NCBI GenBank assembly: GCA_963697385.1
Contig: CAVONU010000004.1
Coordinates: 963,915 to 1,027,914 of the forward strand
Source of the DNA: an uncultured Acidimicrobiales bacterium
Lineage (GTDB): Bacteria > Actinomycetota > Acidimicrobiia > Acidimicrobiales > CAWCAL01
Length of the DNA stretch: 64,000 nt
Direction: 5' to 3'
Every line of letters begins with the position of its first letter. Position 1 is the stretch's first letter. Shown piece by piece: positions 53,405-63,919 of this stretch. A program made the translations under genes and the position numbers. The notes under the pieces were generated by a model. The model searched no databases and was not told the DNA's origin. It saw only the letters and a list, made by a program, of their open reading frames with translations.

Positions 53405-54442
53405 CTACTTACCGCGGTAGGGAGCCGGGCCGCGGTAGTTGTTGAACGCGTCGCCGGCCAGGACGACGGTCTTCTCGGCGGGGTCGTCCGGGTCGTAGGA
53501 CACGATCTCGTTGCCGCCTACGTTGGTCCGCGCCACGACGATCTGGTCATCGGTGACCCACGACGGCTCCGAGTAGCCGGCACCCGGCAGGCCGGAGCCG
53601 TCGGCGGTTCGCGCCGAGTTGGCGCCGTCGAGATCGCCGACCGCGTTGTCCCAGTCCAGAACGCCGACCATGCGGAGCGCCGCCAGGCGCATCCCGTTCG
53701 GGCTCACGTACGGATCCCAGTCGCCTTGTTCGGGCCGGCCCTGGGCCGAGTCGTCGGAGAGCTGGGTTTGGCCCGAGCCGTCGCTGTTCATGATCCACGG
53801 CTCCTGGCTCGCAAAGCCGATGCCGTCGTCGATGCGAATGAAGACGATCCGACCATCCGGGTGCCACGAGGGGTCGATGCTGTACTGCGTGCCGTCGGTG
53901 AGGCGAGTGTGGCCGGTGCCGTCGATGCGACACTTGTGGATCGAGAAGCTCGCCTCGCCGGTCACCCGCGCCGCGAAGACGAACTCCGTTCCGTCGGGGC
54001 TCCACTCGAGGTGGCCCCAGTCCACGTAGTCGAGCTCCTTGTTCTGCTCATCGCCCGGCGTCAGCGACAGAATTCGGGATGGGTTCGATCCGTCGATGTC
54101 TGCGATCCAGAACTCGTCCACGAGGTTGCCGGTGTGGCCCTTCACGTCCGACGCGTAGAGGATCTGCGACCCGTCCGGAGATGGCCGGGGCCAGTGATAC
54201 CGACGCTCTCCGAACGACTGAAGCGCCACGGGAGGCGACGAGCCATCGATGGGGGCGACGCCGATCACCGATCCGTCGCCTGCCGCGTCGTTCGTGAACC
54301 ACTCGAACGCGATCATGTCCGCGGCCCGAGCCGGCGGTGCCGACGTCGTGCAGGATGTCGCCACGATCGCCAGAGCGCCGAGCACTGCCATCGCCAGCGA
54401 CAGCAGCGGCCTCCGACCGACCGTCCGTACCAGGATCCCCAT
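53405..54442 (-). CDS. TolB-like (PD40/WD40-like) beta-propeller lipoprotein
   Basis: ATG 54442. Signal/lipobox LGALAIVATSCT. Repeated PSPDGSQILY, WSPDGTEFVF, PSWHPDGRIVF, VSPNGMRLA blades. Confidence 0.75.
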   Translation of the reverse strand: MGILVRTVGRRPLLSLAMAVLGALAIVATSCTTSAPPARAADMIAFEWFTNDAAGDGSVIGVAPIDGSSPPVALQSFGERRYHWPRPSPDGSQILYASDVKGHTGNLVDEFWIADIDGSNPSRILSLTPGDEQNKELDYVDWGHLEWSPDGTEFVFAARVTGEASFSIHKCRIDGTGHTRLTDGTQYSIDPSWHPDGRIVFIRIDDGIGFASQEPWIMNSDGSGQTQLSDDSAQGRPEQGDWDPYVSPNGMRLAALRMVGVLDWDNAVGDLDGANSARTADGSGLPGAGYSEPSWVTDDQIVVARTNVGGNEIVSYDPDDPAEKTVVLAGDAFNNYRGPAPYRGK

Positions 54443-55464: not shown

Positions 55465-55659
55465 CGTGGTTCCTCTCGAAGGGCGTGATCGCCGGTCTCG
55501 GCGGGCTCACCACCTTTGATGCGGGGAGGGGCGGTCGAGTTCGCGGAGACTCTCGATCCCTGTCCGGTGGCTGATCACCTGCGGCCCGGCATCCGGACGG
55601 GTCGCCGGCCCCGTACACCTGATGGAGCCCGTCCATCGGCGTCTCGAAGGAGCCCGAGA

Positions 55660-56070
55660 ATGTTCAGCCGAACACACCCCATCCTCAAGATCCCCTCCCC
55701 CTCGTTTGCCGGCCTCCCGGCCGCCGAGCTGGAGATCCTCGACCACAACTCCACGATGCTGTCGATGGGGACCGGTCGGGTGGTGCTCCGGCAGGGAGAA
55801 TGGGGCCGCGAGGTCTTCGTGGTCTTGAACGGCGAAGTGCAGGTGGAGCGCGACGGTGCGCCGGTCGCCCGCCTGGGCGCTGGAGCGGTCGTGGGAGAGC
55901 TGGCACTGCTGCACAACACACCTCGGAACGCCACCATCCGCACCACGACGGAGACGGCGGTGCTGGTGCTCAACCGACGAGAGCTCGCCACCGTGATGGG
56001 CCGCTGTCCCACGTTCGCAACCCGGATGACGACCGAAGCCGACTCGAGGATGCTGGACGTCGCCGCCTAG
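55660..56070 (+). CDS. stand-alone cyclic nucleotide-binding (CAP_ED) domain protein
   Basis: ATG 55660. VVLRQGEWGREVFVVLNGEVQVERDG...LGAGAVVGELALLHNTPRNATIRT, the cNMP phosphate-binding cassette pattern. No output domain. Confidence 0.75.
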   Translation: MFSRTHPILKIPSPSFAGLPAAELEILDHNSTMLSMGTGRVVLRQGEWGREVFVVLNGEVQVERDGAPVARLGAGAVVGELALLHNTPRNATIRTTTETAVLVLNRRELATVMGRCPTFATRMTTEADSRMLDVAA

Positions 56071-59281: not shown

Positions 59282-60418
59282 TCAGCTCGACGAGCCGAGC
59301 GACGCGGCGAATTCCTTCTGAACGTGTGACATGCCCGCAACGTCGAACGCCCCGGGGGAGCCCGCCCTGACGGCGCGATCCGACTTCGGGTCGAATCCCA
59401 ACTCCGCTCGGACCTCATCGACGGGGCGGTCGGCGAACGCGTGGTAGTCGACCTCGAGGAGGTCGTTCCCCAGTCGATCGCACAGGACCCGGCCGCGCCT
59501 CAGAGCGTCAGCGATCCGGATGTGCATGTCGGGGCTGTCGAGTCGACGCTCCTGGAGGTCACCGGTGAAGAACCCCGCATCGGCCACGTACCCCGTCTCG
59601 AACAGGCCGACGAGGGTGGCGAGCCATGCGAAGCCCTTCGGGTCGGGGTCAGCCCTTCCGATGAGCGCAAAGACCTCGAACTCGCCATTCAGATTGGTTC
59701 CATAGTCGGCCAACACATGCACGAAGTCATGCTGGGCGAGATAGGCCGACGCCCCGCCGATGGATCCCGGGAGGCCGAAGCCCCGACTCCGGTACATCTC
59801 CCACACCGACCGGCCGAGCGTTTCGCGAGGCAACTCGGCGAAGGCGAGCCACCGCTCGGCCAGCGGCGCATCCTCGACGCCGGCCGACAGCTGGTGTTCG
59901 AGCCGGACGCTCGTCTTGAGCTGGTCCATCCGGGCCATTTCCCAGTGCTCGGCGAACCCGCTGTGATGCAGATCGAGCCAGGCGAGGCCGAACCCTCCCT
60001 GCGCGTAGCGTCGTGCGACTCGGACGAACTGGTCGTCGACCCCCATGGCCCGCGCGTAGGCGGCGACCCGGCGAGCGACGACCGGCGGGATCGGGCGAAG
60101 GATCAGCTCGCCCAACACCATGAGATGGGCAACCCGCCGGCGGAAGTCTTCAGGACGGTCGGTGAGGGCATCGGCGAGCGACTCGGCGGACAGCGGATCG
60201 AGGGAGCCGAGGTCGGCGGAGACATCCACGAGCGCCTCCAAGACCGCCTGCAGGAGGCTGATCTGCACGGGCTCCAGTCCACCCTCGGGTTCGACTGCGG
60301 TCGCGACACCGCGTGCGATGAGTGTCCCTTCGTCGACCGGGACGGTCCCGCCCGGTGAACCTGCTGCACCCACGTCGCCCCCCGTCAGCGGTGGAATCTC
60401 CTGTTCCATCACGAGCAT
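59282..60418 (-). CDS. hypothetical protein with Coq4-like HDxxH-x11-E motif
   Basis: ATG 60418. AQHDFVHVLADYGTNLNGEFE matches the Coq4 family zinc-ligand motif HDxxH(x)11E. Confidence 0.5.
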   Translation of the reverse strand: MLVMEQEIPPLTGGDVGAAGSPGGTVPVDEGTLIARGVATAVEPEGGLEPVQISLLQAVLEALVDVSADLGSLDPLSAESLADALTDRPEDFRRRVAHLMVLGELILRPIPPVVARRVAAYARAMGVDDQFVRVARRYAQGGFGLAWLDLHHSGFAEHWEMARMDQLKTSVRLEHQLSAGVEDAPLAERWLAFAELPRETLGRSVWEMYRSRGFGLPGSIGGASAYLAQHDFVHVLADYGTNLNGEFEVFALIGRADPDPKGFAWLATLVGLFETGYVADAGFFTGDLQERRLDSPDMHIRIADALRRGRVLCDRLGNDLLEVDYHAFADRPVDEVRAELGFDPKSDRAVRAGSPGAFDVAGMSHVQKEFAASLGSSS

Positions 60419-60518
60419 AGGACTTCCCGCCGGTCGCTCGGTTCGCTCGTCTCTGCCCGCCGGGAACGGCCCGACCGCGCCAGCGCCGGATCGTCGCAGG
60501 CCTGGCAGAATCGGGTCC

Positions 60519-63380
60519 CTGAAGTACCAAGCCTTCATCTCCTACAGTCACGCCGCCGACGATGACCTGGCTCCTGCGCTCCAGCAGGCCCTCCATCGCT
60601 TTGCGAAGCCCTGGTATCGCATGCGCGCCCTGCGCGTGTTCCGTGACAAGACCGGGCTTTCGGCCTCGCCCGAGCTGTGGCCCAGCATCGAAGCCGCGCT
60701 CCGCGAGTCGGAACACCTGATCCTGCTCGCGTCCCCGCGAGCCGCAGGGTCGGAGTGGGTGGAGAGGGAGATCGACTGGTGGCTCGAGCACCGCTCTCCG
60801 TCCACGCTGTTGATCGCGGTGACCGAGGGCGACATCGCCTGGGGCGAGCAGGGCGATGGGTTCGACCCGACGCAGAGCAGCGCCGTGCCCGTGGTGTTGC
60901 TCGACGCGTTCCCCGCCGAGCCGCTGTGGGTCGACTTCCGATGGGCGGACGCGAACGCGCGGCTGTCGACCGACGACCCGGCCTTCGCCGATGCGGTCGC
61001 CGACCTGGCGGCACCGTTGCATGGTCGTTCCAAGGACGAGATGATCGGCGAGGATGTCCGGCAATGGCGCCGGACCCGTCGGGCCGTCACCGGGGCGGTC
61101 GCCGGGTTGGCGTTGCTCGCGATCGCAGCGACCGCCGCAGCGGTGTTCGCGTTCGACCGTCAACGGGAGGCCGAACGACAGCGCAACGTGGCGGTCGTGG
61201 CCCGGGAAGCCGAGGCCGAGCAGCGCGTCGAGGCCGAGACCCAGGCGTCGCTGGCGCGGTCCCGGCAGTTGGCGGCCGAGGCGCAATCCTTGGCTGACGA
61301 CGAGCTGGACCTGGCGCTCCTCCTTGCCGTCGAGAGCTACGAGGCGTCGCCGACGTCCGAGGCCAGGGCTGTGCTGTTGGACACGACCCGTGCGGCCCCC
61401 TCGTTGGTGCGATTCCTGGCAGGCCACGAGCATCCTGTGCGCGCCATGGCGTCCGAGACCGGTTCCGGATCGCTCATGTCGGTCGATTGGGAAGGGGAGG
61501 TCTGGGTCACCGATCTTCAACACGGAACCTCGGAGCGACACGAGGTGCCCGGGTTCGACACCGATCGGGCGCCGACGCCGCGACCGGGCGGCGACGGTGT
61601 GGGGTTCATCGACTCAGACGGCCAACTCCGGCTCTGGACAATCGGTGCGGACCGAAGCGAGGCCGTGGGCTGGGCGCCGGTCCTGCCGCCCGACTCCACC
61701 TTGGGATTCAGCTCGGACGGTCGGTACATCGCCGCCGTCAGCACCGTCGACCCGTGGTCGACCTATGTGATGGAGATCGAGACCGAGTCGGTGTCGATCC
61801 TCGCCGGGCCCGGCCACGGACCGCAGGGCGTCAGTCTCCAGACCTTCCTGGGACCGGCCCGCGTCGCCTTCAGTCCGGACGGCCGGTGGCTCGCCGTGGT
61901 CGACGAGCTCGGGGGGCTCGAGGTCCGGGACCTCACCACCGGTCAGCTGTTCGAGGTTGGCCAGGCCACGTCCATTGCATTCAGTCCCGACTCGACGGCG
62001 ATCGTGGTTGCCTCCGTGGGTACCGAGGTGTACGTGCTGGCTCTCCCCAGCATGGAGAGGACCGCCATCAGAGAGCCGGTCGACCCGGGGTCCACGCTCG
62101 ACCTGCAGCCGTTGGCGTTCCGGTCGGACGGCGCCGCCTTCCTGCTCGGCTCCTCCGACGGGTCGGTGCGAGCGTGGGCGTGGCCTCTGGACGCAGCAGA
62201 GCCGGACGTGATCGGTCGCACGAACGGCGGGGGTCGGGTGATGACCCTCGCGTTCGCCGACGACACGACGGTGCTGGTCGCCGACGAAGGTGGCTCGATC
62301 GAGCAGTGGGACCTCGAACGGCCCGCCACGTCGGGTCACGCCATGAGCGGCGAGGTTGCCCGGGTGGGCGCGGTAGCGGTCTCGCCCGACGGCGGTCTCG
62401 TCGCGGCAGGTGGCTGCGAGTCTCCGGCTCCCGAGCTCCCACCCAACCAATACGAAACATGTGTCGGTGCCGTGTGGATCGAAGCGACGGCCGGTGGTCC
62501 GGGCACCCTGCTGTTCCCCGGAGGCGGCGAGGTGATCGCCGCGGCGTTCACGCCGGACGGTCGCATGCTGGTGACCGGAAGCTGGGACACACCGGTGGTC
62601 GCCACCGATCTCGCCACCGGAATCAGCGAGGTGATCTCCGATCGCCCTGCGGTGGATCTGGCGGTCAATCCGGTGAGCAGCGACGTCGCGTTCGTGGGAC
62701 TCGATGGCTCGTTGCAGGTGACTTCGATCTCCGGAACCGGCGTCGAGCTCCGTGCGCCACCGGACGACCTGGGCGCCGAACTGCGCGGAGGCTTGGCATT
62801 TTCGCCTGACGGGAAGGAGCTCTACGTGGCCTTGGGTCGGGGGACGGTGTCGAGATGGGATCTCGACACCGTCACCGAGACGACGGTGATCGAGCTCGGC
62901 GAGGAGGACCTCGTGGACATGATGGACCTCGCCGTCAGTCCCGACGGCAACACCCTTGCTGTGACGTGGTCCGATGCTGGCGGGGACCCCATGATCCAGC
63001 GGTACGAAATCGAGAGTGCGACCGAGTCGTTGCCGGCGATCACCGATCGCCGATTCCTGGGCGGCATGGGGTTCACCCCGGACGGGGCGAGTCTGGCGTA
63101 CTCCTCCAACCGAGGTCTCGTGTTGTGGGACGTCGATCGCCACAATCCGATCGGTCTGCCGCTCGAGCCGGGCTCAGCGGCCCGCCACGCCGTCGCCGTG
63201 GGCGGACCTCCGGAGGCGCCGATCGCGGTGCAAGCCGACGTGAACGGGGCCACGTGGTGGCGCTTGGCGGACGACCACCTCATCGAGGTCGCGTGTGCTC
63301 GGGCCAACCGGACGATCGAGGACAGCGAATGGAGTCGATTCGCCACGTCGGCCGACGAGCCCAGTGTGGCCTGCACCTAG
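60519..63380 (+). CDS. TIR domain - single TM - coiled coil - multi-blade beta-propeller protein
   Basis: KYQAFISYSH...SEWVEREIDWW (TIR). RQWRRTRR plus AVTGAVAGLALLAIAATAAAVFAF (TM, about 61084-61152). At least 10 FSPDG-type blades. No in-frame ATG/GTG/TTG between 60420 and the TIR core, so the start is set provisionally at CTG 60519. Confidence 0.75.
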   Translation: MKYQAFISYSHAADDDLAPALQQALHRFAKPWYRMRALRVFRDKTGLSASPELWPSIEAALRESEHLILLASPRAAGSEWVEREIDWWLEHRSPSTLLIAVTEGDIAWGEQGDGFDPTQSSAVPVVLLDAFPAEPLWVDFRWADANARLSTDDPAFADAVADLAAPLHGRSKDEMIGEDVRQWRRTRRAVTGAVAGLALLAIAATAAAVFAFDRQREAERQRNVAVVAREAEAEQRVEAETQASLARSRQLAAEAQSLADDELDLALLLAVESYEASPTSEARAVLLDTTRAAPSLVRFLAGHEHPVRAMASETGSGSLMSVDWEGEVWVTDLQHGTSERHEVPGFDTDRAPTPRPGGDGVGFIDSDGQLRLWTIGADRSEAVGWAPVLPPDSTLGFSSDGRYIAAVSTVDPWSTYVMEIETESVSILAGPGHGPQGVSLQTFLGPARVAFSPDGRWLAVVDELGGLEVRDLTTGQLFEVGQATSIAFSPDSTAIVVASVGTEVYVLALPSMERTAIREPVDPGSTLDLQPLAFRSDGAAFLLGSSDGSVRAWAWPLDAAEPDVIGRTNGGGRVMTLAFADDTTVLVADEGGSIEQWDLERPATSGHAMSGEVARVGAVAVSPDGGLVAAGGCESPAPELPPNQYETCVGAVWIEATAGGPGTLLFPGGGEVIAAAFTPDGRMLVTGSWDTPVVATDLATGISEVISDRPAVDLAVNPVSSDVAFVGLDGSLQVTSISGTGVELRAPPDDLGAELRGGLAFSPDGKELYVALGRGTVSRWDLDTVTETTVIELGEEDLVDMMDLAVSPDGNTLAVTWSDAGGDPMIQRYEIESATESLPAITDRRFLGGMGFTPDGASLAYSSNRGLVLWDVDRHNPIGLPLEPGSAARHAVAVGGPPEAPIAVQADVNGATWWRLADDHLIEVACARANRTIEDSEWSRFATSADEPSVACT

Positions 63381-63433: not shown

Positions 63434-63919
63434 GTGTCAAGCGAACGTTTCGAGCTGACCAGCTCGACCGTCCGGGCCGACCATCTGGCCCGGCTCGACC
63501 AGCTCGCTGCTCGAAAGGGCGTGGGGCGCTCTGACCTGTTGGGCAGGGCCATCGACGCTCTGCTCGCATGCGACGACCTGTCCGGCGGATACGTCGGGGT
63601 CCGGAACGGCCTGTCGGTCGAGGGGCTCGTCACCGAGGAGATCACCGCCCCTATTCGCTCGGACCACCTCCGCCGGCTGGACCTGATGGCCCAGCGACGC
63701 AGCGTCGACCGGTCCGAGCTGATCGGCCGGGCCATCGACGCCTTCCTGGCGAAGGAGGCGATGATCGGAGCGTTCGGGGTTCCCGGGACGGCGGCGTGGT
63801 TCGCCCCACCGAACGACTCGTCGATCTGGGCCACCCTCCGATCGACGGTCGGAAGCCGCAAGCGATCGGACCGGCCCGGGCGCTCCGCTCGCGCTCGCTC
63901 TGGGGATGCGGCACGGTGA
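63434..63919 (+). CDS. tandem ribbon-helix-helix (CopG-like) DNA-binding protein
   Basis: GTG 63434. Two RHH units: VRADHLARLDQLAARKGVGRSDLLGRAIDALLA and IRSDHLRRLDLMAQRRSVDRSELIGRAIDAFLA. Basic tail. Confidence 0.6.
   Translation: MSSERFELTSSTVRADHLARLDQLAARKGVGRSDLLGRAIDALLACDDLSGGYVGVRNGLSVEGLVTEEITAPIRSDHLRRLDLMAQRRSVDRSELIGRAIDAFLAKEAMIGAFGVPGTAAWFAPPNDSSIWATLRSTVGSRKRSDRPGRSARARSGDAAR

What the first reader, a model, noticed from the sequence alone, without database searches (positions are those of the whole stretch)
60419..63380. TIR domain tethered by one transmembrane helix to a large extracytoplasmic beta-propeller: receptor-like topology, no partner NTPase, no canonical start codon
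Domain order, from 60519:
- A bacterial TIR domain, (L)KYQAFISYSHAADDDL...LILLASPRAAGSEWVEREIDWW. It has the FISYSH first strand, and its SxWVxxE motif places a Glu where NAD-cleaving TIRs have their catalytic Glu.
- RQWRRTRR, then a 23-residue hydrophobic helix (about 61084-61152).
- A charged coiled segment.
- About 650 aa with at least ten FSPDG/WD-like blades, which is enough for two propellers.

The positive-inside rule puts the TIR domain in the cytoplasm and the propellers outside. That is TLR-like logic (external repeat sensor, internal TIR) with inverted polarity.

The window contains no STAND NTPase, ThsA-like, CBASS-like or other known TIR-partner gene. The neighbours are a Coq4-like gene (divergent) and a tandem RHH gene 54 bp downstream.

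The frame has no ATG, GTG or TTG between the upstream divergent gene and the TIR core. Only CTG 60453, ATC 60510 and CTG 60519 are available. This implies non-canonical initiation or a sequence error.
Basis: partly seen in the sequence, partly recalled or inferred. Interest (0 to 1): 0.7.

Follow-up and report, generated by a model that had tools for sequence, protein, structure and literature searches.

The report
Membrane-tethered TIR protein with WD40 propellers
This gene encodes a single-pass membrane protein with an enzyme-type TIR "immune" domain inside the cell and two WD40 propellers predicted outside it; it belongs to a very large, widespread and apparently unstudied bacterial family that looks like a one-protein transmembrane sensor-effector.

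Summary
Window 60519-63380 (+) encodes 953 aa. The parts are a TIR domain with the invariant S-x-W-x-x-x-E catalytic signature, one 24-residue hydrophobic helix, a three-helix stalk, about 14 WD40 blades (two propellers), and a C-terminal cap with two conserved cysteines.

It is not unique. At least 565 species-representative genomes across about 10 phyla carry the same TIR-plus-helix module, with the helix always 183-193 residues after the TIR start. Flank charges favour a TIR-in, propeller-out topology in about 80-90% of members. This topology is inferred, not shown.

No neighbouring gene is conserved, so the protein acts as a single-gene unit. The window holds no STAND, ThsA or CBASS partner.

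The start-codon anomaly is real. CTG 60519 sits exactly where 39 of 81 relatives have ATG, TTG or GTG. It is conserved in a close relative from another dataset. The 34 codons upstream of the annotated ATG 60621 show only synonymous changes. This points to near-cognate initiation, not a sequence error or a pseudogene.

The same helix-stalk-WD40-cap module is fused elsewhere to nSTAND1 NTPases. This family is the version without an NTPase.

The most likely function is a stand-alone transmembrane sensor whose clustering activates a cytoplasmic NAD-cleaving TIR. That function is untested.

The parts
60419..60518 (+). 5' intergenic region between the divergent gene (called start 60418) and the TIR coding sequence. 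It has no canonical start codon in the TIR reading frame, no Rfam match and no unusual RNA fold.
60510..60512 (+). ATC, an alternative near-cognate start candidate. It is also conserved in the close relative L086.
60519..60521 (+). CTG, the most likely initiation codon. It occupies the position where 39 of 81 family loci have ATG (30), TTG (6) or GTG (3). It is conserved in L086 at position 611.
60519..63380 (+). Proposed coding sequence: 953 codons plus the TAG stop.
60621..60623 (+). ATG used by public gene calls (P0001, 919 aa). Starting here removes TIR strand βA and helix αA.
60318..60320 (+). Nearest upstream in-frame canonical ATG, 67 codons before the CTG. It lies inside the divergent gene, where the + frame has non-coding composition. 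The extension it would add is not conserved in L086.
60519..61082 (+). Cytoplasmic TIR domain (βA-βE, about residues 1-146) plus a conserved extension and juxtamembrane helix ending in RQWRRTRR (residues 1-188).
60750..60770 (+). S78-E-W80-V-E-R-E84, the SxWxxxE (WxxxE) catalytic-type motif.
61083..61154 (+). Hydrophobic helix AVTGAVAGLALLAIAATAAAVFAF (residues 189-212), the predicted single membrane span.
61155..61403 (+). Charged three-helix stalk or linker (residues 213-295), containing the family motif SRQLAA...LDLALLLAVE.
61404..63263 (+). About 14 WD40/PD40-like blades forming two seven-bladed propellers (residues 296-915). Includes the Cys633/Cys648 pair at 62415 and 62460.
63264..63377 (+). 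C-terminal cap helix with conserved Cys926 and Cys952 (AC-ARANR-T..-EW...AC). This is the family signature 'AC..ANRNLT..EW....PYR.TC'.

Best explanation
The gene encodes a type II (N-in, C-out) single-pass membrane protein from a large, uncharacterised bacterial family. An enzyme-type TIR domain sits in the cytoplasm and is joined by a basic juxtamembrane helix to one membrane span. Outside the membrane are a three-helix stalk, two seven-bladed WD40 propellers and a two-cysteine cap.

The proposed mechanism is as follows. The propellers bind an extracytoplasmic ligand, which could be a phage particle or protein, an envelope fragment, or a competitor or kin molecule. Ligand-driven clustering brings the cytoplasmic TIR domains together. 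That self-association assembles their composite NAD+ site, as in other TIR NADases. NAD+ is then cleaved, giving NAD+ depletion and/or a cADPR-type signal. The outcome is growth arrest or death of the cell, or activation of an unlinked effector.

No NTPase or partner gene is needed. Translation most likely starts at the near-cognate CTG 60519, which would keep expression low.

Shown here: the domain anatomy, family-wide conservation of the helix and the SxWxxxE motif, purifying selection, the absence of a conserved neighbour, and occasional SLATT or defence-gene contexts.

Inferred: the topology, NADase activity, activation by clustering, and a role in defence or conflict.
For: **Anatomy.**

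**Catalytic signature.** S78 and W80 are invariant. E84 is at least 90% conserved, invariant in A2, and aligned to the L6 and AtTIR Glu.

**Helix position.** The helix lies 182-196 residues after the TIR start in 112 homologues and 183-193 in 80 of 85 genome loci from about 10 phyla, with no sequence conservation.

**Orientation.** The N flank is more basic than the C flank in 81% of members and less basic in 4%. There are FHA-TIR-helix-WD40 variants. The cytoplasmic part has no Cys in 74 of 112 members, while conserved Cys pairs lie after the helix. P0006 and P0012 carry an extra Cys-rich C-terminal domain.

**Modularity.** TIR plus helix is combined with WD40, TPR or HEAT-like C-terminal regions.

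**Selection.** Against the close relative L086, dN/dS is 0.19 for TIR, 0.15 for helix plus stalk, and 0.47-0.50 for the propellers. This is the pattern of a conserved effector with a fast-evolving sensor.

**Single-gene unit.** No neighbour is conserved in about 88 loci.

**Defence-type neighbours in some loci.** SLATT is found in 8 of about 88 loci and lies directly upstream in L073, L082 and L083. L087 has an LSDAT plus SLATT pair. L004 has DUF4062 8 bp upstream.

**Start codon.**
Against: - No experiment exists on any member that I could find.
- Topology rests on sequence rules only. The C-terminal flank of the helix is itself Arg-rich, with about 2.7 K/R in 10 residues.
- AF2 gives low confidence across residues 185-219.
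- The WD40 array is homologous to arrays normally regarded as intracellular sensors of STAND proteins.
- The window locus is a housekeeping neighbourhood (HisRS, AspRS, MgsA, PhyH, HD) with no defence genes.
- PADLOC gives only a marginal PDC-S66 hit for the protein.
- The TIR HMM scores are just above threshold.
- A CTG start implies weak expression, or possibly none.
Confidence: 0.55

Rival explanations
1. The hydrophobic segment does not place the propellers outside the cell. The protein would then be a membrane-associated intracellular sensor. Its WD40 array would detect a cytoplasmic ligand such as a phage protein, as STAND and Apaf-1-type sensors do. The helix would only anchor or oligomerise the protein.
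For: The WD40 array is closest in fold to Apaf-1-type and other cytosolic tandem propellers. The same module follows nSTAND1 NTPases, whose classical logic has the repeats contact the NTPase. The C flank of the helix carries about 2.7 K/R per 10 residues. AF2 does not model residues 197-215 as a helix.
Against: A 21-25 residue uncharged helix (Kyte-Doolittle 2.0-3.3) sits at a fixed position in all members with no sequence conservation, which is the signature of a true membrane span. One span forces the two halves onto opposite sides. The TIR side has no signal peptide, has the more basic flank (81% against 4%), and sometimes carries FHA. The conserved Cys pairs are confined to the C-terminal side, and the cap co-occurs with the helix in at least 64 of 72 cases.
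Confidence: 0.15
2. The protein is a membrane receptor, but not an immune or suicide device. The TIR domain would act as a protein-interaction or regulatory module in envelope, developmental or environmental signalling, like the Ser/Thr kinase-TM-WD40 receptors.
For: The window context is housekeeping. The gene lies near AspRS and MgsA in Nonomuraea too, which suggests long chromosomal residence. Most sampled loci have no defence neighbours. STK-TM-WD40 receptors with a periplasmic WD40 are described as signalling proteins (PMC11032199).
Against: Invariance of the S-x-W-x-x-x-E catalytic signature across phyla is expected for an enzyme, not a scaffold. SLATT, SLOG, TIR and DUF4062 neighbours recur in a minority of loci, with SLATT directly upstream in three. 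The ectodomain evolves fast, as expected for a conflict sensor.
Confidence: 0.2
3. The gene is a recently inactivated pseudogene or is effectively untranslated because its start codon was lost (ATG or TTG changed to CTG). Alternatively, only the truncated product from ATG 60621 is made, which lacks a complete TIR fold.
For: There is no canonical start between 60419 and 60620. No clear Shine-Dalgarno sequence lies upstream of the CTG in the window. Gene callers choose ATG 60621.
Against: The 953-codon frame is intact and retains all family-invariant residues. The CTG is conserved in L086, which comes from a different sequencing run. Similarity collapses just upstream of it, with indels that are not multiples of three. 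Codons 1-34 show 2 synonymous and 0 non-synonymous changes, and dN/dS for the TIR part is 0.19.
Confidence: 0.1

Closest known systems
Bacterial NAD-cleaving TIR proteins (AbTir/BtTir, Thoeris ThsB, SPARTA TIR-APAZ) and plant TIR domains (L6, RUN1)
   Same: It shares the TIR fold: the 45 best Foldseek hits are all TIR domains, nearly all at probability 0.96-1.00. Pfam TIR_2 and ThsB_TIR score above their gathering cut-offs. The WxxxE motif has its Glu aligned to the L6 and AtTIR Glu.
   Different: Sequence similarity is only remote, with profile E-values of 0.003-1 against PDB. The domain carries a conserved 90-residue extension and is covalently tethered to a membrane helix and WD40 propellers. 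There is no ThsA, Argonaute or other partner.
nSTAND1 NTPase-helix-WD40 proteins of multicellular bacteria (Pfam PF20703; Kaur et al. 2021, PMC8195603)
   Same: It has the same hydrophobic helix, 'SRQLAA...LALLL' stalk, WD40 array and Cys..Cys cap module. The N-terminal effector repertoire is similar and includes TIR, FHA and trypsin.
   Different: There is no NTPase domain at all. The TIR is joined directly to the helix, so any switch must work without nucleotide-dependent oligomerisation.
Ser/Thr kinase-TM-WD40/TPR receptors (Planctomycetota, Myxobacteria; PMC11032199). From my own knowledge, also M. tuberculosis PknD (kinase-TM-β-propeller).
   Same: The predicted topology is the same: a cytoplasmic enzyme, one membrane span, and an extracytoplasmic repeat or propeller sensor.
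   Different: The cytoplasmic module is a TIR domain rather than a kinase. The output would be NAD+ cleavage rather than phosphorylation.
Metazoan Toll-like and IL-1 receptors
   Same: Both are single-pass proteins with a repeat ectodomain and a cytoplasmic TIR, and in both the TIR is expected to be activated by receptor clustering.
   Different: The polarity is opposite (type II, with the TIR N-terminal). The ectodomain is WD40 rather than LRR or Ig. The TIR keeps the catalytic Glu, whereas TLR TIRs act as scaffolds. Nothing suggests common descent of the architecture, so this is an analogy only.
SLATT-TIR and SLATT-SLOG two-gene conflict systems (Burroughs et al. 2015, cited in PMC7159879)
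   Same: In L073, L082 and L083 a SLATT gene lies directly upstream on the same strand, in the position a TIR partner usually holds. SLATT pairs lie near other family members.
   Different: The window has no SLATT. The association covers only about 9% of loci.

Membership tests
TIR domain superfamily (Pfam TIR_2 PF13676 / ThsB_TIR PF08937) | Profile score above the curated gathering threshold | tested here: met
   TIR_2 scores 29.9 bits (cut-off 28). ThsB_TIR scores 27.6 bits (cut-off 21.2). The margin is narrow.
TIR domain superfamily (Pfam TIR_2 PF13676 / ThsB_TIR PF08937) | Flavodoxin-like βαβ TIR fold | tested here: met
   The AF2 model has pLDDT 85 and pTM 0.82. The 45 best Foldseek PDB hits are all TIR domains, nearly all at probability 0.96-1.00.
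Catalytic (NAD-cleaving) TIR subclass | Conserved Glu in the WxxxE motif after βC, aligned with the catalytic Glu of known NADase TIRs | tested here: met
   The motif is W80-x-x-x-E84. E84 aligns with the Glu of L6 'SKWCLMEL' and AtTIR 'SSWCLDEL'. It is invariant in A2 and at least 90% conserved in A1.
Catalytic (NAD-cleaving) TIR subclass | Measured NAD+ hydrolase or cyclase activity | not testable with these tools
   This needs an enzyme assay of residues 1-188 with and without E84A.
Thoeris | A ThsB-type TIR gene next to a ThsA (SIR2/Macro/SLOG) effector gene | tested here: not met
   PADLOC and Pfam found no ThsA-like gene among 61 window ORFs or within 10 kb downstream. No neighbour is conserved in about 88 family loci.
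STAND/NLR-type (nSTAND1-helix-WD40) conflict proteins | A central P-loop STAND NTPase domain | tested here: not met
   The protein has no NTPase Pfam hit. Only 188 residues precede the helix, and the TIR domain accounts for them. The helix-stalk-WD40-cap module is shared.
WD40 β-propeller proteins | WD40 repeat profile above threshold and a propeller fold | tested here: met
   WD40 scores 56.4 bits (cut-off 27) and PD40 51.7 bits (cut-off 20.9). AF2 predicts about 14 blades. The top Foldseek hit is 2ymu at E = 1.9e-28.
Single-pass transmembrane receptors (N-in, C-out) | One hydrophobic membrane-spanning helix | tested here: met
   There are 24 uncharged residues with Kyte-Doolittle mean 2.37. 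The position is conserved in all relatives.
Single-pass transmembrane receptors (N-in, C-out) | Cytoplasmic N-terminus and exported C-terminal domain | tested here: inconclusive
   The positive-inside bias has N greater than C in 81% of members and the reverse in 4%. There is no signal peptide. FHA fusions and Cys pairs on the C side are consistent. No dedicated topology predictor or experiment was available.
Toll-like receptors | N-terminal LRR ectodomain, type I orientation, C-terminal scaffold TIR | tested here: not met
   The ectodomain is WD40. The TIR is N-terminal and of catalytic type. This is a functional analogy only.

The most novel reading that the evidence does not exclude
This family may be a bacterial counterpart of Toll-like receptors in logic. 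It would be a stand-alone transmembrane immune receptor that senses a threat outside the cytoplasm, such as an adsorbing phage, envelope damage or a competitor. It would then fire a cytoplasmic TIR NADase directly, with no NTPase switch and no partner gene. That would be outside-in sensing before any foreign nucleic acid or protein enters the cell, which is not an established mode for bacterial TIR systems. Conserved near-cognate CTG initiation would keep the dangerous enzyme at very low copy number.
Probability: 0.3. Interest if true: 0.85.

Novelty: new variant of a known kind. Interest (0 to 1): 0.6.

Why it matters
As far as I know, bacterial TIR systems characterised so far (Thoeris, SPARTA, CBASS and Pycsar effectors, Avs-like) sense cytoplasmic events. 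A TIR wired directly to an extracytoplasmic sensor would add an outside-in route to NAD-based immunity or regulated cell death. It would also give a minimal model, without an NTPase, for how TIR activation by clustering works across a membrane.

The family is large, with at least 565 species representatives in Actinomycetota, Acidobacteriota, Pseudomonadota, Nitrospirota, Planctomycetota and other phyla. I found no paper describing it. One experimental characterisation would therefore annotate thousands of genes now labelled 'WD40 repeat protein' or 'TIR domain-containing protein'.

The shared helix-WD40 module also raises the same topology question for the nSTAND1 proteins.

There is a practical annotation point too. 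Gene callers truncate this gene at ATG 60621 and cut into the TIR fold. The conserved CTG shows that near-cognate starts can hide complete effector domains.

Tried and rejected
- **phmmer of the TIR region against PDB.** It gave no hit at E ≤ 10. A family profile was needed.
- **The search for related loci with the 29-sequence alignment.** A 5-sequence alignment worked.
- **Foldseek against afdb50.** The library was not available.
- **Homologue search with the stalk alone (96 aa).** It found nothing at E ≤ 0.001. The exhaustive representative search with the helix-to-end query answered the modularity question instead.
- **ATG 60318 as the start.** Rejected. The + frame there has the composition of the antisense of the divergent gene. 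The extension is not conserved in L086, whose own upstream ATG gives an unrelated 22-aa peptide.
- **Sequence error at the start.** Rejected, because the CTG is present in an independent run.
- **Pycsar-like system in the window.** Rejected. The PycTIR, Effector and PycC hits are all the cNMP-binding domain of one small ORF.
- **A lysozyme-like ectodomain in the L080 variant, suspected by eye.** Pfam gave no support.
- **Promoter and terminator scan, Rfam and RNA folding of the 5' region.** Nothing was found, and the fold z-score was +1.26.
- **Literature searches for TIR-TM-WD40.** No direct description was found. Absence from this library does not prove absence from the literature.
Full report
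**What is in the sequence**

The + frame is open from 60120 to the TAG at 63378-63380. Counting from CTG 60519, the product is 953 aa.

Pfam finds TIR_2 at 29.9 bits (cut-off 28), ThsB_TIR at 27.6 (cut-off 21.2), WD40 at 56 bits, PD40 at 52 bits, and many propeller models. PADLOC gives only a marginal PDC-S66 hit at E = 0.0016, and NCBIfam only a weak TolB hit.

An AF2 model of residues 1-192 has pLDDT 85 and pTM 0.82. Its 45 best Foldseek PDB hits are all TIR domains: L7, L6, TRIF, SPARTA, RUN1, EcThsB, TLR1, AbTir and others, nearly all at probability 0.96-1.00. A family profile finds TIR chains in the PDB almost exclusively, weakly at E = 0.003-1; the only other hits are weaker tautomerase chains at E ≈ 0.4-0.5. 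It aligns E84 of SEWVERE (60750-60770) with the Glu of L6 'SKWCLMEL' and AtTIR 'SSWCLDEL'.

The full-length model has pLDDT 85.2. It shows these parts:

- the TIR domain;
- a helix at 172-196 running into the hydrophobic segment, with low confidence over residues 185-219;
- three confident helices at 216-291;
- about 52 β-strands between 296 and 915, which is about 14 blades;
- a terminal helix at 918-929.

The best structural match is the Nostoc 14-WD40 tandem propeller 2ymu, followed by other double propellers including Apaf-1.

The hydrophobic segment AVTGAVAGLALLAIAATAAAVFAF (residues 189-212, 61083-61154) has a 19-residue Kyte-Doolittle mean of 2.37. All four cysteines lie after it, as two pairs: C633/C648 and C926/C952.

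**It is a member of a large family**

The full-length search returned 1638 proteins at E ≤ 1e-5 among 8000 scored candidates. The best 120 were mostly 900-1000 aa and covered about 92% of the query. They were annotated only as 'WD40 repeat protein' or 'TIR domain-containing protein', and the closest non-self hit is 37% identical.

In an alignment of 120 sequences, S78 and W80 are invariant. E84, C926 and C952 are at least 90% conserved.

The hydrophobic helix sits 182-196 residues after the Y-x-A-F-I-S-Y-S-H start in every member.

They come from Actinomycetota, Acidobacteriota, Pseudomonadota, Nitrospira, Gemmatimonadota, Planctomycetota, Verrucomicrobiota, Bacteroidota and Desulfobacterota. 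In 80 of 85 loci the helix is again at +183 to +193.

Most C-terminal parts are WD40 arrays with the Cys..Cys cap. Some are TPR (L068), TPR-like (L037), HEAT-like (L060) or unassigned (L080). Some members add an N-terminal FHA domain.

**Topology (inferred)**

- Within 10 residues of the helix, K+R averages 3.98 on the N side and 2.72 on the C side. N exceeds C in 81% of members and the reverse holds in 4%. Net charge is +3.4 against +1.3.
- The N-terminus starts directly with TIR strand βA and has no signal peptide.
- FHA fusions, and the use of NAD+ as substrate, both fit a cytoplasmic N-terminal half.
- The cytoplasmic part has no cysteine in 74 of 112 members. Conserved cysteine pairs lie on the C side.
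- P0006 and P0012 carry an extra C-terminal domain of about 170 aa with 6-8 cysteines.

Weaknesses remain. The C flank is itself Arg-rich. AF2 is not confident across the span. No dedicated topology predictor was available.

**Single-gene unit and context**

All-against-all clustering of ORFs within ±8 kb in 85 loci found no conserved neighbour. The largest non-self clusters are generic: ABC ATPase in 11 loci, histidine kinase in 8 and SDR in 7.

In the window and 10 kb beyond it, the neighbours are:

- PhyH;
- HD;
- an ABM-like ORF;
- the divergent 378-aa gene, whose Coq4 match is only E = 0.013;
- a tandem RHH gene at 63434-63919;
- DUF222, HisRS, AspRS and MgsA.

PADLOC and Pfam scans of 61 window ORFs show a housekeeping region with SecDF, RuvB, Tgt, QueA, YebC and PdxS/T. 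The only defence-profile hits of note are PycTIR at 3.5e-16 and PycC at 1.6e-10. Both come from the cNMP-binding domain of one small ORF at 55516-56067.

Elsewhere the family gene sometimes sits beside predicted nucleotide-signalling conflict genes:

- SLATT lies within 8 kb in 8 of about 88 distinct loci.
- SLATT lies directly upstream on the same strand in L073, L082 and L083.
- An LSDAT plus SLATT pair lies 68 bp downstream in L087.
- A SLATT plus ThsB_TIR pair lies 1.5 kb upstream in Streptomyces phaeochromogenes (L005).
- A DUF4062 gene lies 8 bp upstream in L004.

The window has no SLATT.

**Start codon**

No in-frame ATG, GTG or TTG exists between 60419 and 60620. The divergent gene is called from 60418. 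GC1/GC2 composition shows the minus strand is the coding strand up to about 60418. ATG 60318 is therefore unlikely to be the start.

Public calls start at ATG 60621 (P0001), which deletes βA and αA.

In 39 of 81 family loci, the nearest canonical start is exactly two codons before the motif: ATG in 30, TTG in 6 and GTG in 3. That is the position of CTG 60519.

L086 is a close relative from a different run (Logan SRR26538806). It has the same CTG and the ATC just upstream. DNA identity is about 98% from the CTG onward. It collapses upstream, with indels that are not multiples of three.

Codons 1-34 differ by 2 synonymous and 0 non-synonymous changes. dN/dS is 0.19 for the TIR part, 0.15 for helix plus stalk, and 0.47-0.50 for the propellers.

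The N-terminal strand is therefore translated and under constraint. Near-cognate initiation, at CTG 60519 or less likely ATC 60510, is the best reading. A sequencing error or a dead gene are both unlikely.

**Relation to known systems**

An exhaustive search with the helix-to-end part found 60,910 proteins at E ≤ 0.001. Among the best 144, 110 have a hydrophobic helix just before the repeats. The Cys..Cys cap co-occurs with the helix in at least 64 of 72 cases.

The N-terminal parts of these relatives include nSTAND1 NTPase (P0163), Trypsin_2-nSTAND1 (P0205), BTAD-nSTAND1 (P0214) and a second, canonical TIR_2 class (P0156, 94 bits).

nSTAND1 was defined by Kaur et al. 2021 with TIR, FHA, trypsin, caspase and kinase effectors (PMC8195603). 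I found no discussion of the membrane helix in that paper.

Kinase-TM-WD40 proteins with a predicted periplasmic WD40 are described in Planctomycetota (PMC11032199).

No paper in the searchable library describes TIR-TM-WD40.

The window protein is thus the NTPase-less, TIR-direct variant of a modular helix-WD40 sensor class. It is only an analogue of TLRs, with opposite polarity, different repeats and a catalytic-type TIR.

**Mechanism and verdict**

The most likely function is a stand-alone transmembrane sensor-effector. Ligand binding outside would cluster the cytoplasmic TIR domains, and they would then cleave NAD+. My confidence in this full statement is about 0.55.

Confidence in the component claims:

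| Claim | Confidence |
|---|---|
| Domain anatomy | about 0.9 |
| N-in, C-out topology | about 0.75 |
| NADase-based conflict role | about 0.45 |

The rivals are:

- an intracellular membrane-anchored sensor (0.15);
- a non-immune signalling receptor (0.2);
- an untranslated or truncated gene (0.1).

Its interest comes from the family, which is large, widespread and uncharacterised with a receptor-like topology, and from the conserved near-cognate start. It does not come from anything unique to this locus.

Noticed in passing
window 55516-56067 (+), likely start 55659: A stand-alone cNMP-binding protein. It alone produces the PADLOC hits to PycTIR (3.5e-16), CBASS/Pycsar 'Effector TIR' and PycC (1.6e-10). 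The match is to the cNMP-binding part of those profiles. It has neither a TIR nor a cyclase domain. It lies 4.5 kb upstream of the TIR gene, with five genes between them.
   Followed up: yes
L073 6854-7846, L083 6853-7869, L082 7449-7979; L087 8873-10143; L005 2973-4522; L004 4893-5993: SLATT (DUF4231) genes lie directly upstream of, and co-oriented with, the family gene in three loci. An LSDAT(SLOG) plus SLATT pair, a SLATT plus ThsB_TIR pair, and a DUF4062 gene (a TIR-like NADase family) flank other members. Overall, SLATT lies within 8 kb in 8 of about 88 loci. None is present in the window.
   Followed up: partly
window 60519-63377 compared with L086 611-3471: Synonymous divergence is about four times lower in the TIR part (dS 0.126) than in the helix, stalk and propellers (dS 0.5-0.6). 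Upstream non-coding DNA is strongly diverged. This could reflect recombination or gene conversion of the 5' part, or nucleotide-level constraint. It is unexplained.
   Followed up: partly
P0163, P0205, P0214, P0156; 144 proteins: nSTAND1 NTPases, alone or with trypsin or BTAD domains, carry the same hydrophobic helix, stalk, WD40 array and Cys..Cys cap. Read literally, a STAND NTPase and its repeat 'sensor' would sit on opposite sides of the membrane. I did not find this discussed in the papers read.
   Followed up: partly
L016, L040, L075 (family gene at about 8001): Three other family loci also have no in-frame ATG, GTG or TTG between the upstream stop and the TIR start. Near-cognate starts or assembly errors may recur in this family.
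   Followed up: no
L086 2098-2113: The close relative's gene is split into two overlapping ORFs of 522 and 457 aa by a frameshift. This may be real or an assembly artefact of the 3.6-kb Logan contig.
   Followed up: no
L011 1-1146, L013 2756-4063; L001 15546-19348: AspRS and MgsA/RarA genes lie near the family gene in two Nonomuraea genomes, as on the window's contig. This hints at old chromosomal residence in Actinomycetota rather than recent mobile acquisition.
   Followed up: no
window 63434-63919 (+) and L001 12924-14162: A tandem RHH (CopG-like) gene lies 54 bp downstream, with two RHH stretches and RHH_1 at E = 1e-7. A DUF222 gene follows just beyond the window end. Neither is conserved next to family members elsewhere.
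   Followed up: partly
window 53408-54442 (-): A separate 345-aa gene has faint PD40/Tricorn propeller hits in the precomputed annotation and no PADLOC hit. Its coordinates differ by 1 nt between the ENA contig (L001) and the window.
   Followed up: no
window 59285-60418 (-): The divergent neighbour matches Coq4 only below threshold (E = 0.013, 15.3 bits against 22.9). The match covers only the 22-residue stretch 228-249. NCBIfam and PADLOC give no hit.
   Followed up: partly
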